DNA of 64,000 nt from Cycas panzhihuaensis (Eukaryota; Plantae; Cycadophyta). Position numbers and translations under genes: made by a program. This document shows, in pieces, positions 19,824 through 59,946 of this stretch. The stretch is from the NCBI GenBank assembly GCA_023213395.1, contig CM041465.1, positions 199,089,741-199,153,740 of the forward strand, read 5' to 3'. The stretch's first letter is position 1, and each line of letters starts with the position of its first letter. The notes beneath the pieces were generated by a model. The model ran no database searches. It was given only the letters and a program-made list of their open reading frames with translations, and was not told the DNA's origin.

Positions 19824-20043
<220 letters not shown>

Positions 20044-20068
20044 TGGTGGGTGCTATATTGGAGATAAA

Positions 20069-20074
20069 CACGTG
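20069..20074. promoter_or_regulatory. G-box/ABRE-like CACGTG upstream of SWEET
   Basis: aaaCACGTGtcc about 700 bp upstream of the ATG; motif match only. Confidence 0.3.
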
Positions 20075-20368
20075 TCCTTTTTAAATTTAGCGAGAATAGC
20101 TTACATATAGACATTCCAATAAGTAAATGCCTATTTCCAAGACATTTTGAAAACATAACATATAGGCACACTACACAATAATATTTCTATTTAAAGATGC
20201 AAAATTTCATGTATTCCATTATAATACATGTTTGCCCTGGCCAACTTTTCTATGGATATTTGGCATATCCGTGATGCCCTAATTCATGGAATTAATCATT
20301 ATTTGATATAATTGTGACGGCCATGAAAAGATTCCTGCCCTTTGCGTTGCTCCCTCGCTTTTGCAAGT

Positions 20369-20392
20369 TATATATATATATATATATATATA
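20369..20392. repeat. (TA)n microsatellite in the SWEET upstream region
   Basis: Directly visible. Confidence 0.9.
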
Positions 20393-20770
20393 TTATAGGG
20401 GGAGAAAATTTTTAAAGTATATATAACATATATATATATTTGGAGAAAATTGACTTTAATATTTGATGTGCTACAGGGATCCCACTTTCGGATTTCTATT
20501 GTGGTAATCCCCACTTTAATTGACAGCAATCACGAAGGAACAGAACGGGTGACCAATCAAATGGGGGCACTTGGAGCTCTGGCAAAGTTCGTCAGGCTGC
20601 AGATGCACTTTTCTCTACGTTTTGAAATCTTTTACGTGGTGCAAATCCAGTGGTCACTCGACTGTATTTTAGAGACGTGAAATTTCCACACAAACAATCA
20701 CAACCGAGGTTCTGAAAATATCTTCAATTTCGGGCGTTGGACTCGAGCGGCACATCCTACAATTTGTTTG

Positions 20771-20804
20771 ATGGCGAGTTTTAGCTTCATTCTTGGAGTT
20801 ACCG
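20771..20804 (+). CDS. SWEET exon 1
   Basis: [12 protein letters not shown]; donor gtaatg at 20805. Confidence 0.85.
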
Positions 20805-25208: not shown

Positions 25209-25673
25209 TGAAAGGGGAGAGGTCTGCCTAGTTTCAACCTAGGTTCAAGACTCATGAACACCCATACAACATTCAATCAATAAACATATGAAGTAATTGA
25301 ATTCTTCATAAATGCTCCAAAGTATAGCTTACATTAACTCATAAAATAAAGGTATATTACATGATAAAAGATTACATACAAGAAAGCCTTGCATAAAAAA
25401 AAAAAAAAAGAGGTTTTACAATCCATATTAAGAATATTAAATGTAAGATCATACAAGGTGATAATTAGCACCTTACATGATTAAACCAACTTTATAACAA
25501 TTAAATATTAACAAGAAATAAACCCCCATATGCCTAGGTTCAAAACATTAAGTTGTGACTCAACCCTTTTATGATAAAGAAGCCCTCAATACAAACTATG
25601 TATAAACATTACATCAATATAATATAATGGATCCTTAATAAATTAATAAAGTCAATCATTAATTTTTCTATCA
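25209..25673 (-). repeat. 3' LTR of copia
   Basis: Aligns over its full length with 31830-32291. Confidence 0.9.
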
Positions 25674-28600: not shown

Positions 28601-31600
28601 AAGGAAATTAAGTTGCCATTTAGATATATAATTAGGTATTTTCCACCATGGCTAAACAAAATATCAAAGTTTTATTGATCTATTTAGCTAATTGATAGTA
28701 CGTTACGTGTTATGCTAGGTACATAGTAAACATTATTAAGATGATGTGGAATATCTGAATTCTTTAATGAGATAGGGACATTACTAATCTTGATAACTTC
28801 TAGAGTACTATCATCTCCAAAAGTGACATATTGATCCTAAATTGGTCTTGTATCAGTGATGAGTTCTTCTAAACCAATCATATTATGAGGCACTTAAATC
28901 GATCAACTAGGAAATATTAGAATGATGAGTTGATAAAGAAGCAAAGAAAATATTTCGAGAGTTGGCCATGCAGCTTTCTTAATTCTGTCTCTAGTTACAA
29001 TTCCTATTTTATTAGTTTCTCTAAGAAGCATTCTAATTTTGTCTCCTCGATCCCTGGTAATTTAGCTCATTTTATCTCTATAGTCCTTGATAATTTCTAT
29101 ATCAATGATTTTAATTACCCTATATAGTAGGGTGATTTTAAAACTAATACTTCTAAAGGTTGACTATCTTTTTCCTATAGTTAGGTGTTATATGTCTAGG
29201 TTTTCCATAATAGTGATAAACAACCTAAGAATTATAAGGTGGTTAAGGCTGACATGGTGATATAACTACTAATTAGTCTACTAGTTCAAATTCATTAAAC
29301 CAAATTCTTCTTAGAGTAGTAGACCCTTAAATGTATTGAAATTAATATTAGCAAGTCAATATGTATGTGATAGATTAGATATAAGGGAGTTATAACTAGC
29401 TGGAAAGATATTGACAATGCAATAGATGAGATCACTATCATCTCGTGGCTAACCCATCACTATTAACCATTTCTTAATCACCTTAATTTAGGACAAATAA
29501 GTTGTTATAGATCCTTCAAATAGAATGGAGTAAAGCTAGCCCTCCAGCATCACTACTCTAGCATTATCCTTCCTCTTATAAAGTGCATGTATAATATTCC
29601 AAGCATCTAGAGAGGTAGGGATCAATTTAATATTCTAGTCAACACTATCTTCACATAACAAGTTTAAAAAAGAAAGGGAAACTTCATCAATCTCTTCAAA
29701 GATAGCTACAACATTAGAATCAAGAGGAATGAGGTTATTAAAATCATTAGGTTATTGAATGGGAATTAGCTTAGGAAATTTTTTAGAAACAAAAATCCAA
29801 AGTTTATTTATTATCAATATATGCTTAACTTATTTTTTCCAAACCAAGAAATTATCACTACCAAAAAGTTTAATAGTACTAGTTATAATCATTTGAGATG
29901 CCATGATATCTGATATGTATCCTATCTAAATAAAAAGATATACTAATCTAGTATCTATGTCTCAGTGTCTCTAATCCTAATAGTCTTTGGTAGTTGAGAT
30001 GGTACTATCTAATGGCACACTTTATCATAAGTGGTAGATTGAGGACCTAATATACTTGAATATACATAAGTACTATAGAAGACTTGACTGCCTCTCTGAC
30101 ACTATTAATCCACTTGCGCTAGATTTATGACATAAATGGCAGATCCTCATTTAAGGGTACACTTATAGCCAAGGTGCTTATCCTCTCCAAGTCTAACCTA
30201 GTATCCAAACTCTAAGATTTTCTATAACACCTTAGATTACTACTAAATACACTTGATAGTCAATGGGCTTCTCTAATATCTATAGAATTTGAGAAAGACC
30301 ACTAGCATATATAGAGTGGTAACTTCAGGGATCCAACTCATTGCCCTTATAAGGTTAGTAATAAGGCAGTTTAGTTAGGTATTATTTTTTAAATATTTTT
30401 TATTAATTTTTAAAAGATTTTATTATTAAAAGACTAAATTTTATGTTTGAAGTAGTAAAAATAGAAAAAAGAAACCCTTAAAAAACTAAAAATTTACCTA
30501 AAATAGATTAAAAATAGGCCCTTGAAAAGCTTATAAAATGAGAAAAAAATAAGTTTTAAGTTGGGGACCTTTATCAAATATCGAATATTTTATGAATATA
30601 CTAATCTAAATAACTTAAAATTTTTAAACTTTATAAAAAATTAAAATAAATTATGGGATTTTGAAAAGATGATAATAAAGTTTAGATACTAGTAACTAGT
30701 TCTTTCTATAAAAGTTATAAAATCTCATTCTGTCTTCTCCATTACAAAGATGACATTTCTAAGATCAAAATATATAGTCATATGGTATAGTTTTAGTTGT
30801 CTAATAGTAAGTAAGAATTTGATGAAATTAATAACTTTATTTAAATCCATAATTTAAAGCAGATCGATCAAATTTAAGTGATAATAGTTTCTATTTGCCT
30901 CTGTATTAGCTCTTAAACTACTCTAAATCTTTTGCATCCTGGTTTAGTCATTAAACAACCATAAAAAAGGCTGGGATTATAGTCCACCATATAAAAATAT
31001 AGCCTGTAGAAATCACTATTATGCAGATGACAATGTTGTGGAGATCCAAAGAAGACCACTAGAGATTAAATGAGCTAATAACCACAAAATTAACAAGCCA
31101 TCAATGACACATCCTATGTAGAGGAACACAAAGGCCACATAATGAGAGAATAGTTGAGCACGAAGGGCCATAAATGATAGATGATAGCCATGTAGGGACA
31201 AATAATAGACATGTAAGTAGATGTAGAGATTCTAAAAAAATGCATAGGGACATGAGGGTATTTCATAAAGATCATCATGATGGCAGCTATATAAATGGTA
31301 GCCATGCAGATGAGAGAAGTAGGCCCAAATAAAGATGCAGATGGGAGCCACAAAAGGTAGTCCTACATGCAATCCCTCATATAGATAGAAGCCAAGTATA
31401 ATATTTAAAGAGAATTATGTCTTATGCAAAGGTAAGTATAAATCACCAAAGCCAAGAGATGAATGGAGGTCACCACTCTAATTAACAATTGTAATACATC
31501 TTGAACATAGCCAATAAATCATATTATAATGAGTACCTTTTCATATATAGATCAAATTCTTAAATACATCTACTAAATCATCTATTCAATATATCAAGCA

Positions 31601-31829
31601 TTTCAATATTTATTCAATGATGTAAACAATAATGATGAGATTTTATAAACGATAACTCTTTAATATAAAAGTCATTTGATTTGATTAATAAATTAAAAAT
31701 AGTAGAAGCATAACTACTTTCTCTAATTCAGTTGAGACAATGAAGGCAATAGTTGAAAGTAGTTAGTACAAAGAGGGAGGTTGAGTAAATAGACTAGAAA
31801 TTGGCTACAAACTTGGTTTTTACACCAAG

Positions 31830-32291
31830 TGAATGGAGAGAGGTCTGCCTGGTTTTAGCCCAAGTTTAAGACTCATAAACACCCATAAAACATTCAATCA
31901 ATAAGTACATTAAGCAACTAAATTCCTCACAAATGCTCCAAATAGAACTTACATTAATCTGTAATATAAAAGTACATTACATGATATAAAATTACATAGA
32001 AGAAAGCCTTGTATAAAGAATAAAAGAGGTTGTTATGATGCATATTGGGAATATTAAATGTAAGATTATGCAAGGTGACCATTGGCACCTTGCATAATTA
32101 AACCAAGTTTATAACAATTGAATATTGAGAGCAAATAAACCCCCACACACCTAGGTTCATAATATTAAGTTATGACTTAACCCTTTTTATGATAAAGAAG
32201 CCCTCAATATAAACTATGTAGAAATATTACATCAATATAATACAATTAATCCTTGATGAATTAATGAAGTCTATTATTAATTATTCTATCA
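31830..32291 (-). repeat. 5' LTR of copia
   Basis: Aligns over its full length with 25209-25673. Confidence 0.9.
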
Positions 32292-40820: not shown

Positions 40821-41675
40821 ATAAATGAAGACCCTAACAAATAAGTGTTCTTAGTAGCTAAATAAGACTACAAGCATGGGGATTTTATTTATCCCTCAAA
40901 GGCTATAAGGTAGCATAAATCATACATTTGACTTCTATATATTAAATATTTTGAAAAACATATACATATATATCATGCTCATATAAATTGAATCAGTCTC
41001 ATACCAAAAAATGATTAAGCTATAATATTTTCCTCTTATAGTTATTGCTTATAGTTGATCATAACCTATTGTTGTTAAGAAAAGACTCTCCCTTAATGCC
41101 AAACTCTTTAAATTTATCACACATCTTTATCTTTCAACACTTAGCCAATCATATGCAATGTCTTATATTAAATCTTAGATGCCAAATCATATAACATCAT
41201 AATTGATCATCTTACAGGGTGCCAAAAATCACTAAACTTATTTGTTTTAGGCTTAATTTTTAAATGGACTTCTGTGACATAATGCCAAACTTTAGTCATG
41301 TAAGATGCTAAAAGTAAATCATTAAACATGACCTTGAAGGTCTTATATAACATTAAATTCTACATTTATTAAGTACATAAAATTTTGACCTAACTTTAGA
41401 CTATATTTTCACTTACAAGACAAACTCAAACGGTGTCAAATAAGTGATCATTTCAAAGACATGTGAAATACGATTCCAACATAATTGACAGAATCAAAAT
41501 TGAAGTCCATATGAAAAGGATATGATGAAAATAGTACAAATAAGTGTTTAAAAAATAAAAAGGACCTTTGAAAATGTATTTAGCCACTTTGACGTTAGCC
41601 CCATGTCACATAGTTACCTCCATGTTATAGTTTGTTAAGTCTACTAGACTCTAAATAATATTTTGAAATTACGTA

Positions 41676-42274
41676 TATAGGGATGGTAACTACACCTAGT
41701 TGGGATTAAGACTATCGATGGAAGGCTCTAGGATAAAGGGATCAAACCAACAAGTGCAAGGAAGCACTGACACAGGGCATTTGTGCATCAAAACATAGGT
41801 TCGGGACCCACGAATGACGTACAACTTCCTCTAGGTAACTTAACTTTTAACTTCGAAGGGGAGCTTAAGTAAGGGACTTTCTTAGTTACTCGAGTAACCT
41901 CAAAACAAGGGTCTTCTCACCCTTGGATGGACAGAAGAGGAAGGCAAGACCCAACGATGAAGCAGATCCTTATGAAAAAAAAGAAACTAAGGGATGTAGA
42001 TAAGATGTGTGTAATTATGATGAAGTAAAAAGGGGGAGATCTTAGGGGATGAGTCCTCTAAGAACTAACCCACCTAAAGGGAGTGTTGGACAGATAAAAA
42101 GTGGTAGCAGAAGGAGTTCCCACCACTCCACATGTGAGGGAGTCTAATATCTATATGCAATAACGGGGCAGAGACTAATTATATGCGTATGAAAATGAAA
42201 GGTATATAAAGCATATATGTGTAAAGAACAATAAATACACTTTTCTCTCATTTTCCCTCAAAGATAAATCCTCA
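41676..42274 (-). repeat. 3' LTR of Tat-like element
   Basis: Aligns with 53498-54090. Confidence 0.9.
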
Positions 42275-45129
42275 TTCTCATTTCGTTTTAAGCAAGGGAA
42301 AGAAGAAGAAAAAAGAGATAAACTAAGATATCACATAAAGTGTACGGCTATACAATTGAACAGAAAGAGAGGAGGAGATATCTCCTAATGAACGTTCTTT
42401 CTTAAAGTGCAAACTAATGTGCAAAGAAATGATGTGAGTTGGTTCCCTTTTACTTTATTCCTTTATGTCTTTTTCATGCAAATATATAAACTAAAAGAAA
42501 TAAGAAAAGACCAACGAAATGAAAGTGACATACCTAGAAGAGCTATGCAGCTGAAATACGATTTTCATCTTATGCTACACTCACTTCTTCTTTTCCCTCT
42601 CCTAACGCATGAGCGGCGTAGGAGTTTCCTTACCTCCCCCAAAATGGAATGAAAAAAGCAAGAAAAATGCAAAGGAAAAAGGAACTATACAAAGGCTAGA
42701 ATAACCAAAGGAAAGAAGGCTAAGAAACACACCTGGATTATTATCGTTTATCCTTCTATGCAAATGGCATAGAAAACTTGTAATCACAAAGTTCCTTTCC
42801 CTTTCCCAAGGGCCTGCTAGGCTACAAAGTAAATATATGCATGTATATATAATAGTAAAATATTGAAGTTAGGGTGTTTTAAGTTAAGTAATCTTCCACC
42901 AAAGTGTAACTCTACATCTCCCAAGAAAACTAACAACACATGATAAGGTATGGGGTAGGTTAGCCTCGAAATGGCTAACCCTCCAATAAGTACACCTCCA
43001 TGCTTCCCTTAGACACAGGAAACAATAGATTAGGACAACTTATTAGCAGTGAATAGTAAAAGAAATAAGCATCACGAGGTTTATGAATGTTACCTATATT
43101 ACAAGTATGCTACATACAGTAAATTACAACGTTGGCTAAGTCGCAACCCAAGATGGATGAGAGATACCATTTGGGGCTAAAAAAGATGACCAAGAGAGCT
43201 GTGCAGGCCTAAAAATAGCATAGTAAGGGTTGCATATGCTGATATCCAGCGCAGGCCAATTCTCAAAGACTCCCTGGTAACATAAGAGAGGCACAAGTAG
43301 AAGAGAGGAAAGAGGGGAAGGGGGGTTGCCCTTGAAGAGTAGGCCTAGTTAGGTATAGAACCCACCTTAGCTCCTTTCTCTCGCTCTTTAGGATCCTCTC
43401 CTATGGCCTCCTTGGAAAAACTAGGAGATGAAAGGGAGATGAAGAGCGTAGAAATATAAGAAATGGAGGAGTACCTCCTATGTAAACTAAAAAAATAAAG
43501 AAAGGAGGGATATGCTCAAAGATCTAACCTTTTACAAGACATTCCAAAGGAAAGACATGGAGCAACAATAAAATAATACCTGCTAGGCTAAGTAGGAGGT
43601 AGGTCTACCACTGAGAATAGCAAGAATTAGTAGATCTGATATGCTTACAAGGGGGTCCTTAGGAGGATGCTACAATTTGGAAACAAACTTATTCAAAGTT
43701 GTAAGAAGGGCATGGAGACCAAACTTGGGCATCAATCCTTCCTTGGAGACATTTGTTGATGAGCCTACTACCATGGATCGAAGCTAAAATGGGCGGATCT
43801 TAGGCTGGAGCATAGGGAACTCAAGTCTTGCAGGGTGTTCCTGTAGAAAACTCCAGTGGAAGAAAGAGAAGAGAAAGTGGAAGAAGAGGAAGAAAATGAG
43901 GTTGTTTTGGGATTTTTAGATAACCTTAGGGTAAATGGATGATTAGGGTTAAGGTAGGGCTCGAGAGGTGTCAAATCCATGTGGCAATTTCATGAAAAAA
44001 GTGAAATTTACTATGGGAGATTTTTTAAAATATGTTATAACAGTTGCCCCGGGGAAAACTTCACGGTACTATAAAGTTTACTGTGGTACCACGATATTTA
44101 TCGTGGTGAGTGACAAAGACCAAAATAGGGAAAAAAGGGCATGCCTGGGAGCCTTAAAAGAGGGTACCCTAGGCCTAAGAGGGGCTGTCCCTCTCTCCAG
44201 ATGGCTGCGGATAGTCAAATAAAGGGGATGAACTAAACCAGATGGGGTACCAAAGTGGCAGGACTCCTAGGAAACTAATAATTGGCATATGGATAAACCA
44301 ATCACACTCAGTGGGGTGCTAAGGGCTGTGATATGGTAAGGGGTGTAATGGATCACATGAGCTGAGTGGTGCTTAGGATAACACAAAGGTGCATAGGAGG
44401 GTTGTGGAGTGCCATGGGGATGTATGTCCCATTGATCGTCATAGGCTGAAAGAGTAACAAGCAGTATGATCAAGCAACAGGTGCAAGGTGATCACTCAAG
44501 TGTGATAGTCAGTCATGCAATGAAACAATGCTTCTATTTACCTTTCTAGAGAAGCTATAAAGGTAAAGGATAGAAGCATACCTGTACTTACCTGAGTTGA
44601 CTTTCCAAGAACCCATTCCTGGGAGCTAGGAAACACTACCCCCTTGGCAGCAGAGCCTCACAGCTTAGAAGCGTAATACGATGACGAATGCTGGCAACAC
44701 AATGTTAGTGGCACATATATATACAAATCATAATAATAGTGTAAACCAAGGGCGACGACGAGTGTCATGGCAGAACATGTGGGTGTAGAGGCAAGGGTTC
44801 ATAGGGGCTGCCTATGTATCGTTGTATAGACAACAGGTAATAATAACGAATAAGAGGGATGCCCCCATCATAAGAAGAAGATGAATAGGTGGTGAAGGCC
44901 ACATATAAGACTTGATAGATTTCATGAACAAGGAGATATGTGAAAACACAAATTAAGGATAATGAGTATTATACGTTGTGGTGTTAAGAGTAGAGTAAAG
45001 AAAATAAACCTAGTGGTTGCCATAGTTTAACCTCATTAGTGGTTAGCTTTCAGAGGTGCAAATAGATCAAAATGTGGAGTGCAAGATGACCCGAGACTTG
45101 GGTGCATGGGTGACCAGACAAGTCTCTCA

Positions 45130-45549
45130 AGGTGGGTCACTAAGGAGAGGAAGGTGACGCTCAATGACGGGATGAACTAAGCTATCTGCCTTAGCGTTGA
45201 GAGCTTGAGGGATGTGTCAGATGTCAACAGATAAAAAACAAGCCAACAGGGATCTGGCAGTCGAGGTAAGGGCTCTCAGGCATGGGTACCACACCTGGTA
45301 GACCTGGGTGAGATGGGACACCACAATCTGAGAGTTGCAAAGGAGGACGATGGGTCCATGGTAGAAGCAGACTGTATCGGTAAGGGCCTCAATAATAGTT
45401 ATGTACTCAGCTTCGTTATTGGTGGCTTCGGGAAGGAAGATCCTAGAACACATGAGGTCGTGTTCGAAAGGGTCATAGAGAATCCACGTGGTGGTGGAAG
45501 GGCCAGGGTTTCCACAACTTCTGCCATCGGTAAAAATGAGTAAAGCCAT
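45130..45549 (-). pseudogene. Stand-alone archaeal-type RNase H (aRH) ORF of the Tat-like element
   Basis: MALLIFTDGRSCGNPGPS...ATNNEAEY...CNSQIVV...*HIPQALNAKADS. RNase HI D-E-D-D layout with the third acid changed to N (G>A) and one TGA. Confidence 0.85.
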
Positions 45550-46564
45550 AACAAAAGATTGGAGGTCTCGGTAGAAAGGAAAAATGATGATGGGACCGAT
45601 GAGTGGAGAGGACTCAATAATGGGAAACCATCGTAAAAGACCTAAATGGCTATCAATAAAGGTCACAAAAGGTAGGAAGACTCAAAGACGAGGCTACCCG
45701 AAGGTGAAGAGGGTCGTCCGGTGGATAGGAAAGTACCAGTGGCGAAAAGGCCTCTATGGGATACCAAAGGTCATTTAAGGAAGCAAAATGCAGTTCCAAA
45801 TGGAGGGGACGCTTCCTTTAGAAGCCGCAGAGGCACAAACGGGCAACAAAAATGGATCTAGGATGGCAAAATGAGTCAAACAAGTATAAACTCAAGTATA
45901 TGTGGAGGTGGCACACAAAACAAGATAGAAGGGGCCTCGCAAGGCCAAGGAAGGGGTACCATAAATGCACCCGACATGTACAAGAAAAAAGAAGGCCACA
46001 AAGGCAAAACGAGAGATGGACCTAGAAGGAAAAGGTGATTAGAGAAGGGAGATGATCTCAAGGGCTGTCGCAGTGAGGGAAACAGGAGAAGTGCCTGTCG
46101 GGGCCCCCACCTATATAAGGAAAACTCAACGAAAATGGAATTTATTTTCACGGGCTCACAAACGATTCAGAGACCTTCTCCTTACACAGCAGAGTGTCGC
46201 CCAACTTCAGAGGCATAGAGGGAGAGATTTGACTATTGGATTAGGACATAGAGATAGCCGATGAGACCAAAGAGACGAGATGGCAGTAGCGAGGCCAAAT
46301 CTGGTGAGTGGATCGCCCATACCAAAACCCATTTCATCGTTAAAGTTTGATTTCTTTTAGTGATTTTTGACATAGTTTTGGGCCCTTTATGGGCAAATAA
46401 TGATCTCCTAGAGTTTGAATTAGACCTAGCGAGAGGGGGAACTAGGGCATTAGGAATCCCTGGTCTTGGTGGGCTTAAGTGTGGCCCACTCAGGTAAATT
46501 TTTTTTTTTTAAGGCAGGAAACCCCTAATTTTAGGGGGGTGACATCGACACTGCAGCAAACATC

Positions 46565-48660
46565 ATGGTACCGTGATCTTTGCCATAGGGCTTCTCAGAT
46601 GAGGACAAAATCTTAGCAGGCCCCATGCTAAACTCTGTAGTACCACATAGTTTAGCATGGTACAAAGGCAAACTAACTAAAAAACATAAAAGATGGCCCG
46701 AAGGATAGCTAAATCTTAATCTGGGAGGATTGAGAGGCGATCCTAAAGGCAAGCAAATAGGTTTAGATAGGTTTTAACTATTTTTTTTTGTGTTTTGCAG
46801 GCAGTTATCGCGGTGGACAACTGCAAGAATATAGGAGTGGCTATGCACAGTTTCATTGAGATGATGACTCATGGAGACTGACGAGTGCTAGGGAGATGTG
46901 GCCTATTGAAGGCTATCTAAATGCCACAATACGCATTCAACCAGCACCTTCTAGTGGATACTGTCTCCCACTGGGGTCGACAGAGGCGCATATTCCATCT
47001 CCCCCAAGTGGGAGATGTCACAGTCACACCAGGGAGATAACGACCTATTTAACAGGTCAGGCTTGGTGGGAGAGGAGAGGCATACTAGTGCAGAGTATGA
47101 TCATGTCCAGGATTCCTCATGTCAAGAAATTGATTACACTATACATTCTATTCTGGATATCCCAGAAATAGAATTATAGGGACATACACAACAGATGGAT
47201 GGATACGATGAGGAGATGTGAGGCTGGGGAGAGATTGGACTAGGTCACACTGATAGCAGCGAACTTGGTTGCCCAGCTAGATGTCATCAGGGTAGTTATG
47301 AGAGGAGGACTATCCTACAGCATGCTACTATAGTGTTGGTTCTTTGATCGCTTTAGAGCAGTGGCACCACCAGGAGGGCCCCACCTGATTTTAGCATGGG
47401 CTCCTATGGTACGCAGGTGGTAGACTCAGCTCAAGAGAACTGAAGACTAGGCACATATAAGGCATTCAGTGGAGGCTACATTGCTAAACCTCCTCACCAT
47501 GGTAGACTACACATCAGATCCATATAGAGGGGTGAGGTGGGATAGCAATGATAAGGCATGAGGAGTAGGAGGTGCCCCTAGCAAGGGAGACGATGATGAC
47601 GGAGGTGACAGAGGTAATGGGGCCAGCCCATCAGGAGTAGCAGGTGGAGAGGTGGGTCTATCAGGGACCGCAGGAGGAGAGGTAGGGCTATCAGGAGCCG
47701 TACGAGTAGAGGTGGGTCCGTTAGGGACTACAGGGAGAGGTGGAGCTTCCCAGATACCAGTCCAAAAATTAAGGATAGTAGGGAGAGTCTGGGCAGTGGC
47801 ATCACCAGTAGAGGAGGGTGGAGATGCCCCGACAGGCCAAACAGTTGGAGAGGTGGTACTAAAGGAGAAGGAGATACCAGCAGTGGGTGGAGAACCCAAG
47901 GAGGAGGTGATCGTCTAAGACAGGGAGCTGGCAGTTCCAGCAGGTGAGACACTATATTTTCTTGTCATCTTTCGATCACTAGATATCTAGTTGTGGTGCT
48001 TTATTTAATTTGTTTAGTGTACTTATGGATGTATAAACTGACACATGCCATATTGGATTTTGCAGGAATGGTGGGCATCGGGAGGTTGGTTGAGGTGATA
48101 ATCTAGGAGATGTTTCCCCTGATCTACACAGAGGGATAACCTCCCATCTAGGTAGGGGAAGAGCCACAGTTGGTAGGGGACCACATGGTGGTATTCGCCC
48201 CTTTAGTCAAGGCCAGAGATATGTGGGTGGTAGAGTCCCAAGAGCACGAGGCGTGAATCAGAGAGCTAGAGGTGACCAGAGTGGAGAGAGATTCTTTATG
48301 AGGCTAGGTCTAGGCTCTAAAGGCTTAAGGAGGAGCAAGTGGTGATGAAGAGAGTCACATCAGGATAGTAATACTGGAGGAGCAACTCCAAGGAGTGGAG
48401 GGCGAGATGGATCGTATCTAAGCACGATACAATCAACTAGTGGGTTAGATGATATCAAGGTCATCAAGGAGCAAGACATATACCTGCACGATGATGACAA
48501 CCCCAAGGAAGCCTCGGGATGAGGGTAGTCAGGCAAGGAGCTCACAGAGGTGCAGGAGGAGTCTAGGAGGTATGTGGTCCCCTGGAGAGAGATCACATAG
48601 ACTAGGAGATGAAACCCCAGGATCAGGGCAGTACTAGAGAGTAGGATACTATAGTTTTTT
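46565..48660 (+). pseudogene. Plant Mobile Domain (MAIN/MAIL-type, aminotransferase-like) plus Gly-rich repeat and coiled-coil gene, spliced, antisense to the host element
   Basis: HLLVDTVSHW...FHLPQVGDVTVT, LL*CWFFDRF, VRRW and DPY match PMD motifs (LxERW..FHLP.GEMT.T; LLQxWxxER; RW; PY). Acceptor ttttgcag at 46793-46800. Intron 47944-48065 (gtgaga...ctgac...tttgcag) whose removal joins the frames. Confidence 0.8.
47627..47745 (+). repeat. 30-bp coding tandem repeat (xSGxAGGEVG, ~4 copies)
   Basis: PSGVAGGEVG LSGTAGGEVG LSGAVRVEVG PLGTTGRGG. Confidence 0.85.
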
Positions 48661-48786
48661 ATATGGGAAAGTACCGGACCTCTAGGGAGTCACCATATAT
48701 TGCTACATGAATGTACTCCTCCCTGCAAGGATTCCAGCTTCCCACAAATGATGTACCATACCATTTATATGACATGACACATGACG

Positions 48787-48915
<129 letters not shown>

Positions 48916-49699
48916 GACCATTGGCACCCCATTGATATATGTTGATGTGTATGATGACACGTGATGATAAATGATGTTATATTTTCTTTTATATGTATGT
49001 ATGTATATATGTAAGGGTGCACAGATGCACAAGGAGTTATAAATTATAATGTTTTTTGGTTGATTATTATATAGTTTATGATAGAGGATTGTCTGAGCTA
49101 CACACACTTCCTTCCATGCAGTGCCATATTCCTAGCAGGCGCACACACGATCACCATGAGTATCGATGATAGATGTATATGAGACTAGGAGATAGGGTGG
49201 CATACATGTCCACATAGGAGCATAGCAGGATATATAAAGGAAGCACTAGCAAGAAGGGAGTGACGATACTCCAACATACCATCCTAGTTGGGGAATATAC
49301 CCAGGATCAAGAGCGATAGGGACAATATACCCAATTAGGAAGAGGAGGGCCCCTTAAGGAAAATGGGGACAAGGGGTTCCATGGGAGGAATCCAAAAAGC
49401 AAGAAGGCCACCCTAGCCCTCCATTCCACCTATGACTAAGGGGAATGGGGACATGTCTAGGGTAGTAGTTTAGGCTCATTTTAGAGTGCAAAGAGAGAGA
49501 GAGGTATGCCTAGCCCATGCAGGGGTAAGGGTAGTCACACGTAGGAGTGGAGATAGGTGATGAAGGGTAGGCCTTGTGTGGCTAGGATTATAAGTAAAAT
49601 GGTTTTGGTTGAAACCATATGAGTGTAGTAGGCCTAACATGTGATGGATCACGTGGCAAGGTCACATCTGAGTAGGACAGACTTTGGTCCTGGGTGATG

Positions 49700-52600
49700 A
49701 TCTAGAGCATTAAGAATAAGTACCTCTATGAGTGGCCAGTCAGCGCAGATGCCTATATGAAGCCACTTGGGGAGGGTAAGATGGTGAAAGAAGTGGTTGG
49801 TTTGAAACCAATGCCTTAAGAGCCAATGTAGAATGAAGAGGAGTAGGAATATCTGATTGAGATATATCCCTAGGTACACATGAAACCAAGGTGACACACC
49901 GAGGAGGGGACTCATAACCCTCACTATTTGACTTGGAATCACTTATGATGACTAAGTAACTATAACTACTTATACTAATAGGGGCAAACCTGACTAGATT
50001 TGGCTCATGACAAGGCATAGGTTCTGACTGATGAAGGTTGGTCTCCTGAAACAAAGGCCTCTCAGAAGGGGTGGCCTCCTCAAGATCATTATCTTCATCA
50101 TCGAAGATAGCCTGGCAAGCTAGATGAGAAGTGTGAGATGGCATAGGCTCATGAGTGATAACCTTAACTTATCTTTCATGGACAAATTTAAGTTGCCCTT
50201 AATGTGAGGAACAGATTGCTCCCATTTGGTCAAGTCATGGTCAGCCTAGTAAGAGGTTATACTCCACATCGATATCGAGGACAACAACTTCGACAGAAAC
50301 AGTCTTCCCTCCTAAGGTGATGGAAAGGGAGACTACCCCTAAGGGGGACTTCTTAGTCCCATCATACCCTTGGCATTTCTAAGGGACAGACTCAAGAGCT
50401 ACTATGCCTAGCTCCTTAAGCATACGTGTAGGCATCGCATTAACCGATGATCCATTATCTATAATAGTCCTCTTTATGATAAAATCGAGAGTCTCAACGG
50501 AAATGACAAATGGGTAATGCAAAAGCTTCTCCCATTCACTAGGAGATGGGAGATCTCACAGATCGAACAAGATGATAGGCGATCCATGGGAGGTGGCACC
50601 TACCGCATGGATGGAAGCATCTTGTTGGCTAAGAGCTTCAAGAAGAAGAGTGTGTTGCTCAGGATAGCTTCTCAAAACATCCATCAAGGACATCCCCGCG
50701 ACGACGGTGTGGAGCTCATCAACGATAAAGAAAAGCTTCCCCTTCATAATAGGTTGGGGAAGAGCCCTTTAAAAATCTTAATGACCGGGACATGTGGGAA
50801 CAGTATTGGGAAACGCAGGGATTTCTGGAGGAGGGACCTCCAAAAGAGGATCAGCGTGAGGTATGGATGAAGAGGCGTCGTTTGCCTCTTTGATTTCTTG
50901 AGACCAGTTAAGGCATACAATGGGGTAGTCTCGAGCAACTGAATGACCTTCTTTGCCTTATTCTGGTATTGCAAAGGTGAAGGGATATGTCGGTTAGGGG
51001 AACCCGAGGAAGAGGATGAATTGCTCACACCCTTCCCTTTAGCTTATGAAGGGTGAGGGTTTAGAGACCTTCTTCGATTTTGATTATTCTTCTAATGGGG
51101 TTGCGATCATATTCCTTATGTTTGGGGAAGGGATCTTTATGAACGGGCTGGTCTAGGTTGGGCCTAGAGGCCCGTTTAAAGGAAGAGTCACATTATAGGG
51201 TAGCCTTAGGATGCTAGGCCCGAGATCACGAATCATCGTGGAAGCACTCCCCATGGATAGAGCACCACTTCTTCTCAAGGGAGGAGTCGAATTTTCTCGC
51301 TTGAAAGGAATGGGTGTTGCCACCCTTAGAAGAAGTGGCTTGGGAAGCCTAGTGAATTGGCTTGTTATACGTAGGAGATGAAGGAGCTTGAAGCTTGAGC
51401 TCTTTCATAGTACGTTCAAATGAACGTATGGCCGAAGTAAGAGGGTCTAGGGTCTTCTCAATAGAATGGGAAGTAGACCTAGTGGGTTACTGGGTTTTGG
51501 TTTCTTTTGATGGCGAATGTGCCTCACGTCATTGTGAGGACTTTAGAGGCTTATTGAGTCTAGCCTAGATCTCAATGGCTTTGAGTGCCAAGCACTTCGC
51601 TATGGTGGAGTCACATGTAGTTGCCCCCATCTTAAGGACTTCTACGTGGACTTCTGGACAAAGAGCATTGACAAAAAAGTCCCTCTTCAACTCCTCAGGC
51701 AAAGTAGCCTTCGTAGAATAAAGAAGGTCGTGGAAACACCACACAAAGTCGCGATTCATTTCATCGTGACCTTATTTAAGTGAAAAAAGGGATTTCATTC
51801 CACTCTCAAATGGATGAGCCACATTAAAGTAGTTGATGAACTTATCCATGAGCTATTGGAATGAAAATATAGAATGCGCAGGTAGGTAATAAAACCATTT
51901 GAGGGCATCGCCTTAAAGAGATCATAGAAATAGTTTCATGAAGATGTGATCATAGGCCCAGTAGTTAATACATACCATAGAGAAACTACGAACATACTTC
52001 ATTGGGTCATATGATAAGGTCCCATCGAATTTGTAGACTTTAGGGGGATGAGGCGATAAGTTAGTTCTTAACACCTCAACGGATAAGGGAGTTGATCGAT
52101 AGTCCATAAAAGGATGTGCCCTTGACTGGACTATAGGGTCAACAGAAGCTGGAAATGATGGGGGGTAGGTTTGCCCAAATCCTCCTTGGAGGGTTTGGTT
52201 CGAAAGGGAATGTTATCCTCCCACCACTTGGTGAGGAGGCGTAGATCCCATATTCAAAGAAACCTGCATGGGAGTGGATAGGTATGACTCACCCATCCCT
52301 CCTAAGGAGAGTACTCCTTATTGAAAAGGAGCTTAGGGGAAGAATCCTTGGGAAGGAGTTGGCCCTCCTTCCAAAGGCATAATGTAAGGTCCCATACAAG
52401 ATGGTAGAAAGGAGGGGTGAGGGACTGGATTCTACCTATATAGGCCACCTGTGGATGGCGTGACACCATAAGGATGTAGAGGGTCCATCCCATAAGCAGG
52501 TAGGGAGTTCCCTTTACCATGCCCCCATGGTTGAGTAGTGCAACTGAGAGGTAGGTAGAGAGAAGGGTCTCTAAGTTGATATTGGGATTGTGTGGGGATG

Positions 52601-53200
52601 GAGCCCACATGACTAGAAGTAGGGGGACACATGGGTACCTTAGGTCTAGAAGGTGGATAAACAATGATGGGAGGAGGATTAGTGGTTTGACTAGTTAGGG
52701 GCATGCTCAACCCAAGTTGAGAAGATGACATGCCCTCAATGATCCCCAAGGAACATACACCATTGGGGGAAGGAGAAGAGATTAAAGACAGGCTCATCAT
52801 GGGTAAAGCAACTGAACAAGATGAGCAAGGGGAAGGAGATGTAGAAGAAGGGGGCACAATGTTTCGTAAGATGTTCTCAAACCACTTGGGATATGGTTGG
52901 AGACGAGCGGTTTGGAAACATTGGCTCAAGGCTTCTACTACATCGATAGGAGGAGTATCTTCCTGATGGTAAGAGGTAGAAGGAGCCTTGTACGAAGTAG
53001 ACCCCACATGACGATCCTCATGAGAATCACCATGATGGTGGTAAAACTCTAAAGGAGATGAAGGTTATACTCTGTGAGTAGAGGAATGGTGAGACTAGGG
53101 GTGTGGCTGGTTACTTGGATAATAAATGGGATATTCGCTTCCTTAGTCAAATCCTTAGAAGGAAGTAGGTGGCTCAAAGGAATCAGACACATAAGCATGG
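49700..53200 (-). pseudogene. Degenerate gag-protease of the Tat-like element
   Basis: Pro/Ser-rich N-terminus; retrotransposon gag core; WCSIHGECFH knuckle-like motif ~51240-51270; aspartic protease ~50520-50200. Confidence 0.85.
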
Positions 53201-53497
53201 TATGCCCAATTCGAAAGATATCCCTCTATGATTAGATCAGGATCTGATGTGGGAAGGGAATAATATGAGGGCTTTTCCAACAACAGAGGTAGGCCTTGTA
53301 AGCAACGTGAGAATTGTCACATACAAGTCCTACCTATGCACTAGAAGAAAAGAGAAACAAGGTAGTGCACACGTTGGGGGCTACCCAACAAGATCAAAAG
53401 GGAAAGCTATCAAGAGGTAGTGGCACCAACAAGAAAGGGAGAAAAACTAATTCCATTACTAGTGGGTCCCCAGTATGGTCGCTAATAGAATCACATC

Positions 53498-54095
53498 TAT
53501 GGGGATTGTAATTACACCTAGTTGCAATTAATACTATCGACGGAAGGCCCTAAGATGAAGGGATCAAACCAACAAGTGCAAGGAAGCACCCACACAGGGC
53601 GTCCGTGCATCAGAACGTAGGTTTGGGACCCATGAATGGTGCACAACTTCCTCTAAGTAACTTGACTTCTGACTTCGAAGGGGAGCATAAGTAAGGGACA
53701 TCCTCAGTTGTCTGAGTAACCTCAAAATAGGGGTCTTCTTGCCCTTGGATGGCTAGAAGGGGAAGGCAAGACCTAATGAGGAATCGGATCGTCATTAAAA
53801 AAAAAAACTAAGGGATGTATATGAGATGTGTGTAAGTACGATGAGGTAAAAATGGGGAGATCTCAGGGGAAGAGTCCTTTGAGAACTAACCCACCTAAAG
53901 GAAGTGTTGGACGAATAAAAAGTGGTAGTGGAAGGAGTTCCCACTACTCCATGTGTGAGGGAGTCTAATCTCTATATGCAACAACAGGACATAGACTAGT
54001 TGAATGCGTATGCAAATGAGAGGTATGTAAAACATATATGTGCAAAGAACAATAAATACACTTTTCTCTCATTTTCCGTCAAAGACAAATACTCC
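53498..54095 (-). repeat. 5' LTR of Tat-like element
   Basis: Aligns with 41676-42274; PBS nearby. Confidence 0.9.
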
Positions 54096-57000
54096 CATAG
54101 TCTGATACTAGTTCTAATGGATAAGTAAAATGAACAATGATATTTTCATACAAGAATTTCATGGTACTAATAGTCTCACAATGCTTGAGGGGTCAAGCTT
54201 CCATCCATTTTATGAATAAATCAATAGCCACTAATATGTATCTATCATTCATTTATTTTGTAGGAGAACTTATCGATCCAATGAACTCCAATCCCTATTT
54301 CTTAAAGGGTGCTTGCACTGTAATTAGATGTAAAGGTATAAAATGACATTTACTAGGTTTTCCCACTCGCTAGTAAACATTACAACTCTTTATCCATTTT
54401 GTAATGTCTTTAAATATTGATAGCTACCAAAGGCCTACTAATAGAATTTTTTAGATTATGGATTCCATGCCTTGATGTTTGGCTACAACTCCTTCATGAG
54501 CTTCTTGTAGAATGCCTTATACTTCATGTTCTAGTATACATCATCTCAGCATACCATCTAGACTAAGTATATATATCATTCCTCATATGAATTGGAAGGA
54601 AAATGTTTTATGAATAAAACTTTGCCTTTCCACATATTTTAATCCTTTAAGTGTTTGACCAGTAGCCAAATACTATGTAATTCCTTTGTACCATTTTGGT
54701 ATGGCCTCTACAAAAAATAGTTAAGCATTAGAGAAGTCATTTGGTATTCTCATAGTTGGTTCCCCATCTACTTCCCTTGATAATATATCAAGTACAATAT
54801 GTTTCTCTCCTTTCTTGACAATAATTTTAAAATTAAACTACTGAAATAACATCAATCATTTACTAATCCTACCCTGTAAAATGGGTTTGTTTATCAAATA
54901 TTTCAAGGCTTGATGATCCACATAGAAGATAAATGACTTGGTTGAATAGATAATATCTAAATTTTTATAAAGTGTAAACCATGCTTAACCCTTCTTGTTT
55001 AGTAACTGGATAATTTTACTCAATATGTATCAAATTTCTACTAGTGAAATGAATGGGAAAATCCATTTTACTGTCACTTAGTTGAGTTAAGATGCATCCA
55101 ATTATAATCAATGAAGCATCAACATATACGTGAAATGATCAATCCTAATCTGTAAATCTCAAAATGGGAGCTTTTGTGATTTTTTCTTTAATAAATTGAA
55201 TGCTAATTACTATTGTAATTCCCATCACCAAGTTGTTTTCTTCTTGAGAAAATTCTCTAAAAGGTTTATAATCTATATGTATCCTTTAATGAATTTATAG
55301 TAATAACTTGTTATGCTAAGAAAATCCTTTACCTGCTTCATTACCTTTGCCAGGTTCAAGTAGAGTTTACTTTTTTAACACATTTGTAGCATCAATCATA
55401 GGTTTGCCAAATGATCCTTTAACAATGAAGAAATTGTCTAATCGTCTAAAAATACTTCAATTAGCTTATTAATTACTTGCCAAAAATTATTTAGAATTAT
55501 CCTTTGAAAGGTGGTTTATGTATTCGTCAATGTAAAGGGCATAACTTTATGCACATAAGTTTCCCACTTCGTAAAAAAGGTCATCTTCAACTAGTCTTGT
55601 GCTATGATTCCAACTTGATTATATCCACTAAAATTATTTGTGAATGAATATATTTCATGTCCAGCTACCTTTTCAAGAATATCTTTAGTGAATGGTATTG
55701 GAAATGGATCCTTCTCCGTTGCTTTATTGAGGGATTTATAATCTACATAGGCACAATGTTTTCCATTCTTCTTGGGTACCACCACTACTGGACTTATCCA
55801 TTTACTAGTTTCAACTTCAAAGATATAGCCAACCTCCAATAGTTTATCTAATACAACTTTTACCTTTCCTTTATGCTTTGGACTTATTCAATAGGGGTGA
55901 TGTCATACAGGCTTTACTCCCTCTATCAATTCATTCCAATGTTCTCCTAATTCTAGCAGTATCCCTTTTAAATCTTGATAAGACCATGCAAAAATATCTC
56001 TATATTTTGAAAATAAAATTGTGGCTTTATCCCAATAATCTCCCATCGAAACCTCTAGGGTGCTCTTTTATGCCCAAATTTATTTGTTGAATTTTTAATT
56101 GTTCATTTTGCATTGTTCTACCATCTTCATTCAACACATATGCTGTTGTTTAATTGATTACTCAACTTCTATATTCTATACTAGAATATTCACTAGGAAA
56201 TCTATGGTCATTACTTACTACTTCAATTTGATAACAACTTTGCTCAACCTCAATCCCAAGGGTACTCAAAATTTTTGGAACTAGTGAATCCTAGTTATGG
56301 TATGTAAAAGTTTTATAAAACTCCTTATTGAGCAAATCCTAATTTGTCAACTTCATTTTTTCGCATTGATTATACCATAAACTCGAGATTCCTTTGAGGG
56401 TCTAAGCCTATTTTACACTCATTCACATCTTAGAACTTACTTTATTTTCTAGATTTGTTCATAATACTTTATATAAGCTGTGGGGTCATCATTATGTCAA
56501 AACATCGATAATTCATTTTCTTGTTTTTAAAATCTTAATAAAAAAAATTTACATAATTCATTCCATGATTTAAACTTACTACCATAAACAGAAAACCATA
56601 TAATAGACTGACCCTCAAGAGACAATGGAAACAACAAGTAACAAGAATCTTTGTGTTGTTTATCATTCATAATCAATTGAGTACAATACTCTATATGATT
56701 GTTTACTTAGTTTTCTTAGCCCTAGAATTTATTTCCATTCATAAAACTTTCTTTTAAGTTCTTTACAATTTCTTCTATTTGGAAAATTGCTATCATTATT
56801 TGAAATTACTTGATCTTTTGGTTCTAGAGGGTCTATACATACTTCCAGTTTGTATCATAGAGTGGATTCTATTTCACCCTAGGTATTTTGCAACCAATTC
56901 ATCATGTATACCAATAATGCACTACTTAGTAGAGTTGTTCTAACTGATATATAATTTCTAAACAAGGAATTATAGTGGGTTCCAATCCCATAGTTGTGGA

Positions 57001-59946
57001 TGATGCCCATTCCTCATCTACTATTTTCTCAATATAAGGCCCATCTAAGTATAGTGGTAGGGTCACAACTTTGTTTCTTACCTTTAATGTAAATGAGAAT
57101 TCACCCCAATCTTGAATATCCTTTATGGCTAATAGCCATGGTCTACCCAATAATACTGGATAAGTTCTCTTTTTATTTTACATTTTTACCATCATAAAAT
57201 TCAACAAAATAATGATCTTTACAACTGTGGTTAGTATATTCATCAATGTTCCCATTAGTCTAACCTGCAATTGGTTAACTAATCTTATTCAATAATCTGG
57301 GACAACTATTTTTAGCCTTTCTAATTCTATCAAAGAAGATTTATGGAGTACATTAACTCTTGACACCCCATCCATAATTGTTTTGCATAGCATTATCCTA
57401 AATATGACCATTGGTACCTTCGATTCAGCCCCCTTGTCTTTGACGACACTTATTATATATTTTTCTATCTAATCTAAAATTAATTGTTGGAAATAACTAG
57501 CCTCCCACTATTTAAATACAACAACAATGGGGATTAAGACTTCTAATTCAATTAATAAATCCTTAACCATTTGAAGCTTTTGCCATGGATTCGTATATTC
57601 TTTTGAATGGAGTTTTTCATGGGTTGATCATCGCTTATATGTTTGTCCCTTAAATTGCCCCTCATGATATGATTCTTCTTGTTGAGCTTCACCCATTACA
57701 TCTTACAAAATCTTGATAGCTTCTTGGAGTCTTTGTTTTTCTACTATTGGATCCAGAAAAGTGTCTTGAATAAGTGTTAAAGTTACTTGCCTACTTTTTA
57801 TTTGTAATTGAAGCGGCACCTCCTTATCTGGGATAATCGTGACTAAATTAGCATTTTTATGATTTATTTTTTATATGATTTATCCATTAATGATATGTTG
57901 ATCTATATTCTTCACAAATAAATTCACCATCTTTTTCTTCTAACAGGTAATCTGATCTAAAATGTTCCCAACTTTGACATAAAAAGTAATGGATTGGCTT
58001 TGTCTTTCCTTTATATTATTTTCCTAATCTCTCCATCTTCTATAAGAATACATTATGGACATTACTTTTGGATTGAGAAAAATGTTCCCACATATTATGG
58101 TTAGTTTTTCTATAATACTCACACCATATTATTTCTTTATTATATTCATTTCTTAGATGGCCTTATTGATTGCAAGGTGGAGGGCACCATATACTGTCTT
58201 ACAACTTTTCCAATTATAACCTAGCTAATTTAGCATATAATTTTTCTATTTCTTGATTCTGGTATATATTCGTATGTATTGATATTGGCAATTATCATTT
58301 TAATACTTCTACCTCTTTTTTTAATGCTTCAATCTCTAGATTTGTTCCCATCTGGGGTGTTTGATTGTATGCTCCCCATGTCTAGACTCATAATGATGGT
58401 AGAGGAAAGGCTAGACCCATTTGTACCATCTATTATATTGCCCATTAAGAGTATGTAGTCTTCATCTTATTTTTAAATTTTAGGGCTAATTCATATACTT
58501 GTTCATAATTATTCATTGGGTTCAACATGACTTTATCCCTTAATTATGGGATTAAGCCTTAGACAAAATATTTCATTGCCAACATCAGGTTAATTACTAT
58601 TATTGGTTTTATTTTGTTTATTATTATCCCCATTCGACCATCAAAATTATTTATAGACTCTCTAAGGTATTGCTTGATTTCCTCTAAGGCCTGAAAGATG
58701 GCCTGGGATCTCTTAATTTTTGGAATCAATCCAAAAATTAATCTTGCAACCTTTCCCATGATAAATTTTATGTTATAACATACTAGAACCATACAATTAT
58801 CACTCCTTGCGATGTAGAAAAAAATCAAGCTTTTATCTCCTCTAGGTTTGTGACTTTATTTTTAGCATATTTTTGAATAATGCTAAGTAGTCACCTAGCT
58901 ATGTGGATCCATCAAAATGTATGCTTAAAAATTTGAATCATTTTATATAATGATATAAGGTCCAACTAGTCCTACGCTACCCCCTTGGCCCATTTCACTT
59001 AATGGTTGATTACCACTTCCTTCTACATTGGTAAAAAATGACTGGTTTCACGATGGGCCTCTGCCCCCCAAGTTCTCCCCTAGTGGTGGGATTCTGCCTC
59101 TTGAACTCCTTCCAAGACTTACGATTATTGACTTAAAAAAGAGGATTTAAAATGTGACTCAAAGGGGTTTTGACTTCCAACTAATGATGGTTCCACTCCC
59201 TATCTGTTATACTATATAATTCTAATTCAATTGAACTACTTTTACCTTCTTGAGATGGTAAATATTCGATAAGTTCCTTCTCACATTTTCTCCTTTGGAC
59301 TTCTATTTCAATAGGATCCTCTTCCAATGTATACCCTTGGTTATCTATAGCTTATATCATCTTTTCTTTAATAGACTCTCCAATTATTTTTTCCTCTCTT
59401 TACCTTTTGCCTTCCACACTTGATTTTCTTCTTTGAATCGAGTTAGTAAATAGTCACCTCTTCACTTGGTTCTCTAGTGTGATTATAAATCTTGGCTTTC
59501 TTACTGTAGTCTATAGTCTATCCTTATCCTAACACTCTCTATGTTCTCCTTATGATTTTGTTTCTACCCTGGGTGGCATAGAAGATGACCTAATCATTTA
59601 CTTTTTGTTGTGTTAGATAATGTAACAATAATATTTTGGAGGCTAAAATTTTAATAGGTTGATAGCACGGTTTCTCCCCCAAACTTCCTTAGGGGGTTCC
59701 AAGAGGGGCGGTAGTCCCCCTTTGCTGGGGGGTATGGGGGGAGTTAGAACCTCGCCTTCGCCCCTCCCCCCAACAAAGAGGGGGTTCGAGGGTGATAGCC
59801 CCCGACCCAAAAAACTAGCATTGAAAAGCATACTAAATTGTAAAGAGAATCGGGGTCATTCACTCAAAATATCCTAGATCTTATGGTCAAGATTTATGTC
59901 TTATATGACTCTCTCATATAGCCTAATTTAGGGTGTTTTTTCATTA
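54096..59946 (-). mobile_element. Degenerate non-chromovirus Ty3/gypsy (gag-PR-RT-RH-INT), truncated in the INT core; probable 5' LTR piece at 59839-59946
   Basis: RT ORF 55591-55839 (WISPVVVVPKKNGK..VDYKSLNKAT.KDPFPIP); RH FHVYVDAS ~55110-55135; INT YILVAIDLFIKWMEA...LVSD 54100-54240; protease LLGRPWLL ~57130-57155; gag ~58000-58900. Confidence 0.85.

What the first reader, a model, noticed from the sequence alone, without database searches (positions are those of the whole stretch)
45130..48660. Head-to-head PMD / aRH cassette in place of pol in a gag-PR-only Tat-like retroelement
Seen: between the protease (~50200) and the 3' LTR there is no RT, RH or INT. Instead a PMD gene on + (from ~46565) and an aRH ORF with its own ATG on - (from 45549) diverge from a ~1-kb spacer. 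The spacer holds a near-symmetric TATA, cctatataagg (46110-46120), and keeps more CpGs than the surrounding TEs. Known: Tat/Ogre elements carry aRH and extra ORFs, and host PMD proteins (MAIN/MAIL1) act in TE silencing and gene expression. Inference: a non-autonomous family kept a bidirectionally transcribed accessory module (possible anti-silencing PMD plus an R-loop-removing RNase H) and borrows RT/INT in trans.
Basis: partly seen in the sequence, partly recalled or inferred. Interest (0 to 1): 0.8.

Follow-up and report, generated by a model that had tools for sequence, protein, structure and literature searches.

The report
Pol-less Tat family keeps PMD/aRH tail
This is an old, broken copy of a plant retrotransposon from a multi-copy subfamily that lacks reverse transcriptase and integrase; its back-to-back PMD and RNase H genes are likely the ordinary tail of complete sister elements rather than a cassette that replaced the lost genes.

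Summary
The anatomy is real. A 12.4-kb Tat element (41664-54095, minus strand) has gag, protease, an antisense intron-bearing PMD gene and a solo archaeal-type RNase H ORF, and no RT, RH or INT. The copy is decayed: LTRs 86% identical, 21 stops in PMD, no target-site duplication. In four genomic runs, contigs only 79-85% alike run from the protease tail into the PMD-side spacer, so the pol-less layout recurs and is not a one-off deletion. Other contigs join that same spacer to what reads as an integrase C-terminus, so complete sisters likely exist. PMD and aRH then most likely sit behind pol in them, not 'in place of' it. Both parts are published for gymnosperm Tat: solo post-integrase aRH and antisense PMD. 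The promoter evidence is weak: the TATA fits the consensus only towards PMD (18% of shuffles give one), and CpG retention equals that of gag. aRH more likely serves reverse transcription than R-loop removal. What remains new is the head-to-head order and a pol-less subfamily that keeps it. Transcription and selection were not tested.

The parts
41664..42274 (-). 3' LTR (611 bp)
   Evidence: 86% identical to 53486-54095; TG...CA ends
42275..42289 (-). purine-rich tract next to the 3' LTR (likely decayed PPT)
   Evidence: sequence; role inferred from position
42290..45126 (.). 2.8-kb 3' region with no recognised domain
   Evidence: 0 Pfam families in 6 of 6 frames at E up to 5
45127..45549 (-). 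solo archaeal-type RNase H (aRH) ORF, 140 codons, one internal stop; the third catalytic position reads N in this copy
   Evidence: RVT_3 7.5e-10, RNase_H 2.3e-8; PDB RNase HI hits; Met at the same position in 4 of the 5 closest relatives that cover it
45550..46564 (.). 1,015-bp spacer between the two start codons; candidate internal promoter
   Evidence: CpG o/e 0.535; promoter activity untested
46112..46119 (+). TATA-box match pointing towards PMD only
   Evidence: only TATAWAWR in the spacer; 359 of 2000 shuffles have one
46565..48637 (+). antisense PMD gene, predicted three coding exons: PMD, a G/E/V-rich 30-bp repeat (47640-47743), and a last exon that looks coiled-coil-like by eye; 21 stops in 603 codons and at least one frameshift near 47030
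   Evidence: PF10536 on two collinear pieces; the element's only two TTTTGCAGG acceptors (46793, 48058) lie here on plus; intron 47944-48065 has a canonical donor and keeps the frame; stops; repeat
48791..48912 (.). (TA)61 microsatellite behind the PMD gene
48913..49534 (.). non-coding spacer; its upper end is shared with sister copies that continue into an integrase-like end
   Evidence: loose ends at 49496-49502 in 3 of 4 runs
49535..49550 (-). likely scar of the pol deletion: Tyr-Val-stop matching the last codons of the sisters' integrase-like end
   Evidence: window sequence against loose ends; Tat integrase of L003 ends L-K-M-Y-Y-S-stop
49740..50471 (-). protease domain (50241-50471) and a 142-codon stop-free tail ending at 49740
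51664..51936 (-). gag capsid core (decayed; 8 stops in the 300 codons of 51399-52299)
   Evidence: PF03732 E 5e-4; stops
53466..53484 (-). primer-binding site, likely tRNA-Arg type
   Evidence: position and sequence; the match to tRNA-Arg is recalled, not computed
53486..54095 (-). 5' LTR (610 bp)

Best explanation
This is a decayed copy of a multi-copy, pol-less subfamily of Tat retrotransposons, likely derived from a post-integrase (structure #3, TatIII-like) parent by loss of the RT-RH-INT reading frame, with the parent's 3' tail (antisense PMD, then solo aRH) likely inherited as it was. Shown: the domains, the absence of pol, and recurrence of the protease-to-spacer join in diverged copies. 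Inferred: the deletion ran from just behind the gag-PR stop to the last codons of integrase; the RNA kept its LTRs, PBS and PPT, was packaged by its own Gag and copied by a sister's RT and INT. Inferred: PMD was made from its own spliced antisense mRNA starting in the spacer, as a nuclear accessory protein. Inferred: aRH was made as a separate small protein that supplied the RNase H activity for reverse transcription, which the degenerate native RH cannot. How aRH mRNA arose is open; my own split is about 45% internal promoter in the spacer, 35% spliced RNA from the LTR, 20% other. This copy makes neither protein intact.
For: Recurrence: 42-77 contigs per run cover 49547 and no bin of 49380-50040 is empty in 4 of 4 runs. 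Listed pieces X1-1, X4-25, -26, -27, -28 bridge 49545 with 31 or more letters each side at 80-85% identity, too diverged for one orthologous locus. Complete sisters: loose ends behind 49496-49502 (13 contigs in X1, 15 in X2, 26 and 39 in X3; none listed for X4) read on the element strand as K-F-Y-Ala/Val-stop (read by eye); the Tat integrase in L003 ends L-K-M-Y-Y-S-stop. Solo aRH: start Met shared with P0003, P0005, P0006, P0032; P0004 is a 142-aa stand-alone relative with all four acidic residues. Lineage fit: TatIII has tRNA-Arg PBS 64%, aRH 92%, antisense 3' ORF 18%, size 12.7-17.3 kb (PMC6317226 supplement row); 12.4 kb plus about 3 kb of pol falls in that range. Antisense PMD in gymnosperm Tat III (PMC4408406); solo aRH ORF after integrase (PMC13468544); native RH degenerate (PMC10508981).
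Against: No listed contig spans more than about 260 bases, so PMD and aRH were not shown to follow integrase in any complete sister, nor to follow the join in any other pol-less copy. The 2015 paper places Tat III aRH at the C-terminus of Pol with PMD at the 3' end, which would be tail-to-tail, not the order here. Places 49691-49717 are not bridged by 31 letters each side among the 32 listed pieces of 19,672 (table 3 gives contigs 38-39 letters from their ends at 49698). This copy has no TSD and its flanks do not join. K-[FY]-[YF]-x(0-2)-stop occurs 25 times by chance in the window's six frames.
Confidence: 0.7

Rival explanations
1. One reading: the pol-less family itself acquired or specially kept a bidirectional PMD/aRH cassette that complete sisters lack, with anti-silencing and R-loop-clearing roles.
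For: The head-to-head order is real and differs from the order described for Tat III. The best 1-kb CpG window of the element (45364-46378, o/e 0.631) covers the spacer. aRH has 1 stop in 140 codons against 6 in 200 for the protease region. Host PMD-C proteins oppose Polycomb silencing, and TE-encoded PMD-C is proposed to do so (10.1101/2024.09.27.615353).
Against: Integrase-like ends join the same spacer. TATA fits one direction only and is near chance; gag has the same CpG level (0.630 at 50414). Four upstream ATGs lie between the TATA and each start codon in this copy. Gypsy-encoded PMDs are clade A, not the PMD-C clade of MAIN/MAIL1 (PMC5418596); this PMD's clade was not tested.
Confidence: 0.13
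2. This copy is a chimera of two family members joined after insertion, so its overall layout is partly an accident even though the protease-to-spacer join is a family trait.
For: 5-bp flanks differ at 3 of 5 places; the right flank is an older integrase cut at the LTR and its second half is not in the left flank; LTRs are 14% apart.
Against: Both LTRs are the same family and length. Later deletion or nested insertion at the left edge explains the flanks as well. The interior shows no duplicated or out-of-order part.
Confidence: 0.1
3. A single complete element lost pol by deletion after it inserted.
For: The copy is old and rearranged at its edges. Summed depth is much lower over 49495-49816 than on either side, so the pol-less form seems to be the minority (depth is not copy number).
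Against: Dozens of distinct contigs per run, 79-85% alike for the listed ones, cover and bridge the join in three organisms; a one-off deletion would leave a place that no other copy crosses.
Confidence: 0.07

Closest known systems
Tat structure #3, 'post-integrase' solo aRH (Tat H in Pinaceae, Tat I in Cycas/Ginkgo; PMC10508981, PMC13468544)
   Same: aRH in its own sense ORF in the 3' part of the element
   Different: Here pol is absent and an antisense PMD gene lies upstream of aRH; neither paper's text or searched supplement mentions PMD, and both classify by RT
Tat lineage III / TatIII of gymnosperms (PMC4408406, PMC6317226)
   Same: aRH beyond the integrase position, antisense 3' PMD ORF, likely tRNA-Arg PBS, size range
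   Different: 2015 text has aRH at the end of Pol, protease in pol and no coiled coil; here aRH is separate and downstream of PMD, the gag-PR reading ends in a stop, and the last PMD exon looks coiled-coil-like
Maize Grande gene23 and Retand antisense ORFs (PMC7264820, PMC11963269)
   Same: Antisense accessory gene between pol and the 3' LTR, transcribed from its own internal promoter in Grande; 10 of 63 recently active Retand clusters lack a core domain
   Different: Those encode TRP28 or unknown proteins, not PMD; no sense aRH ORF is described back-to-back with them
Gypsy-encoded PMD-A and host PMD-C MAIN/MAIL1/MAIL2 (PMC5418596; 10.1101/2024.09.27.615353)
   Same: PF10536 domain
   Different: Function is shown only for host PMD-C; this protein's clade and activity are untested

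Membership tests
Tat clade (Ty3/gypsy) | RT phylogeny within Tat | not testable with these tools
   No RT in the element; sister RT not retrievable
Tat clade (Ty3/gypsy) | Archaeal-type additional RNase H | tested here: met
   no tree was built
Tat clade (Ty3/gypsy) | Tat-like gag and protease | tested here: met
   Protease 34-36% identical to Nicotiana polyproteins P0001/P0002; gag and protease hit by the aRH-bearing pol locus L003
Tat structure #3 / TatIII | aRH in a separate sense ORF downstream of integrase | tested here: inconclusive
   Separate ORF with conserved Met met; position behind integrase inferred from sisters' loose ends only
Tat structure #3 / TatIII | Antisense 3' PMD ORF | tested here: met
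   PF10536 E 2e-4 and 0.075, below the curated cut-off
Tat structure #3 / TatIII | tRNA-Arg PBS | tested here: inconclusive
   PBS-like 19-mer next to the 5' LTR; tRNA match recalled
Tat structure #3 / TatIII | 5-bp TSD | tested here: not met
   Flanks differ at 3 of 5 bases in this copy; likely later rearrangement, so it lowers the claim for this insertion, not the family
Tat structure #3 / TatIII | Gymnosperm host | not tested
   Host unnamed; no genome held
Non-autonomous LTR subfamily | Same deletion layout in many diverged copies | tested here: met
   for the protease-to-spacer join only
Non-autonomous LTR subfamily | Independent insertions with their own TSDs | not testable with these tools
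   Contigs too short; no assembly
Bidirectional promoter | Divergent transcription starts in the spacer | not testable with these tools
   No RNA holder listed

The most novel reading that the evidence does not exclude
In this Tat lineage one internal promoter drives both an antisense spliced PMD mRNA and a sense mRNA for the solo aRH. That would answer how a stand-alone RNase H outside pol gets expressed. A pol-less subfamily keeps this module under selection and supplies Gag, protease, RNase H and PMD to partners that supply RT and integrase, a division of labour rather than pure parasitism.
Probability: 0.2. Interest if true: 0.7.

Novelty: new variant of a known kind. Interest (0 to 1): 0.42.

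Why it matters
Biryukov and Ustyantsev (PMC10508981) state as an open question how an aRH placed outside pol can work from a separate ORF. A PMD gene with introns and an aRH ORF back-to-back across 1 kb give a concrete place to look for its transcription start. RT-based TE classifiers miss pol-less subfamilies like this one, which appears to have many copies in very large plant genomes. The single copy here is a fossil and has no function of its own.

Tried and rejected
No whole genome is held, so no LTR-based copy census, TSD survey or dN/dS. No RNA holder listed. Word-indexed homolog search: aRH 0 of 1 candidates; PMD 0 of 490; protease region 2 of 3,859, both distant. Searches for family members with context: viral 1 of 89 (L001, 27%), metagenomes 1 of 144 (L002, 35%), genomes 1 of 49 (L004, bacterial). 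L001 and L002 gave no hit to the window at the cut-offs used; L004 was not examined further. One search was in the wrong frame and means nothing; two PMD frames and one were also off and were redone. A paper search for the integrase end motif found only unrelated papers, so L003 was used instead. A splice-acceptor-like tract on minus at 46022 (12 of 14 pyrimidines) was not accepted: at least 11 other minus-strand sites score as high. No atlas look-alikes were obtained for PMD, so its clade stays open. No structure or complex was predicted: aRH is a known fold and PMD is too broken. Earlier scan notes: nothing.

Full report
Observation. The window holds an LTR pair at 41664-42274 and 53486-54095, 520 of 607 bases identical, with 66 transitions and 23 transversions, K2P 0.166. 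The element reads on the minus strand. Six-frame Pfam scans with stops read as X found gag, protease and an RNase H only. tblastn with two Tat pol proteins hit only the protease and aRH at meaningful E-values; the best other hit was E 0.038. So RT, native RH and integrase are absent. aRH runs from ATG 45549 for 140 codons with one stop, and its 4 PDB hits are three RNase H proteins and Rv2228c. PMD is supported by two collinear but weak Pfam hits, profile 1-44 (E 0.075) and 91-245 (E 2e-4), split by a frameshift.

The PMD gene looks like a real spliced antisense gene. The element's only two TTTTGCAGG acceptors are inside it, both on plus. The second intron (47944-48065) has a canonical donor, and removing it keeps the frame into a last exon rich in E/L/R that looks coiled-coil-like by eye (no predictor run). 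The first intron's donor is uncertain. Introns on the antisense strand survive retrotransposition, so they imply a separate plus-strand mRNA in the ancestor (inference). The gene carries 21 stops in 603 codons; the gag core has 8 in 300 and the protease region 6 in 200. This copy is a fossil.

The aRH start is probably real. Of 1,360 representatives with E up to 0.001, four stand out at 49-70% identity. P0003, P0005, P0006 and the weaker P0032 have Met at the same position, and P0004 is a 142-residue stand-alone protein with all four acidic catalytic residues. These are gene-caller products from unnamed short contigs, so the support is moderate. The third catalytic position is N here, D in P0004-P0006 and G in P0003.

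The promoter evidence is thin. The motif matches TATAWAWR only towards PMD; 13 such sites lie in the element; 359 of 2000 shuffles of the spacer hold one. CpG o/e is 0.535 in the spacer, 0.34 in the rest of the element (P 0.017, post hoc), 0.52-0.56 in gag, 0.12-0.21 in flanking DNA and 1.03 over the host gene at 20300-22600. The contrast with surrounding TEs mostly reflects this element being less decayed (inference). Four ATGs lie upstream of each start codon within the spacer in this copy.

Is the layout a family trait? Seventeen runs from 9 studies hold part of 44900-48700, the best six 21-25% of its words. Four were laid. Over 48930-54300, 64,000-72,000 contigs per run were laid and all 30 bins were covered. 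Over 49380-50040, all 29 bins were covered in 4 of 4 runs. Table 3 lists 42-77 contigs at 49547, 26-46 at 49698 and 7-20 at 49737, the thinnest listed place. The 32 listed pieces (of 19,672) are about 79-85% identical to the window and overlap from 49420 to 50038. Five bridge 49545 by 31 or more letters each side; 49691-49717 is not so bridged among them. Many differently diverged copies therefore run from the protease tail into the PMD-side spacer with no room for pol. No listed piece links this join to PMD or aRH.

Complete sisters. Loose ends behind 49496-49502 were listed for X1 (13 contigs), X2 (15) and X3 (26 and 39), not among the six shown for X4 (1,149 rows not shown). Read by eye on the element strand they give K-F-Y-Ala/Val-stop with synonymous variation. 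A full Tat pol in L003 ends L-K-M-Y-Y-S-stop. The window keeps Tyr-Val-stop at 49535-49543, followed by bases that match those loose ends apart from transitions. The simplest reading is that complete elements join integrase to this same spacer and that the pol-less form lost the whole second reading frame. The motif is short, and a looser version occurs 25 times in the window, so this is good but not conclusive.

This insertion. The 5-bp flanks do not match. The right flank is an older integrase core cut at the LTR, and its second half is not found on the left. The copy was rearranged after insertion or is a recombinant.

Mechanism. The element RNA would be packaged by its own Gag and copied by a sister's RT and integrase (inferred). 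PMD would come from an internal antisense promoter, as for maize Grande gene23 (PMC7264820). aRH would supply RNase H for reverse transcription, since the native RH is degenerate in every aRH-bearing Tat structure (PMC10508981); R-loop removal has no evidence here. Whether aRH mRNA starts in the spacer or is spliced from the LTR is open. An anti-silencing role for PMD is a published speculation for TE-encoded PMD-C, while Gypsy PMDs belong to clade A (PMC5418596; 10.1101/2024.09.27.615353).

Literature seen. PMC10508981: whole main text and a supplement search. PMC4408406: passages, section 6 and a supplement search in which file 1 could not be searched. PMC6317226: passages and one supplement row. 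PMC13468544, PMC11963269, PMC5418596 and 10.1101/2024.09.27.615353: passages. PMC7264820: parts 1 and 2 of 3. Steinbauerova 2011, Kejnovsky 2006, Gomez-Orte 2013 and Du 2010 were seen only as citations. I found no description of a head-to-head PMD/aRH pair or of a pol-less aRH-bearing Tat family (searches; one search returned 0). Figures are not held, so Fig. 2B of PMC4408406 and Fig. 2 of PMC10508981 could already show the order.

Verdict. The 'cassette in place of pol' is more likely the inherited tail of a known Tat type. New variant of a known kind; interest 0.42.

Noticed in passing
window 20300-22600 (+): Host SWEET sugar-transporter gene (PF03083, E 4e-10) in several exons, in the only CpG-rich island of the window (o/e 1.03).
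   Followed up: partly
window 46623-46660: Inverted repeat with perfect 12-bp arms and a 14-nt loop inside the first PMD coding exon (sequence).
   Followed up: no
window 54096-59000 (-): Older decayed gypsy pol (RH and integrase zinc finger by Pfam, RT by tblastx) cut in the integrase core exactly at this element's LTR; its remainder is not on the other side.
   Followed up: partly
window 43700-44220 (+): Acidic E/K-rich stretch and an 89-codon open frame in the 3' region; may be a second decayed antisense ORF; no Pfam hit.
   Followed up: partly
window 9438-15317 and 25209-32291: Two more LTR pairs, 81-88% identical, i.e. other old retroelements.
   Followed up: no
window 19773-20102 and 48791-48912: Two long (TA)n arrays; the second sits right behind the PMD stop, where its transcript would end.
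   Followed up: no
L003 1-9247: A plant Tat retrotransposon (gag, protease, RT, RH, aRH, integrase, broken antisense frames behind) is filed as a viral contig in IMG/VR.
   Followed up: partly
window 49449-49494: Short stretch just behind the integrase stop with far higher summed depth than its neighbours in all four runs; may be a conserved cis element.
   Followed up: no
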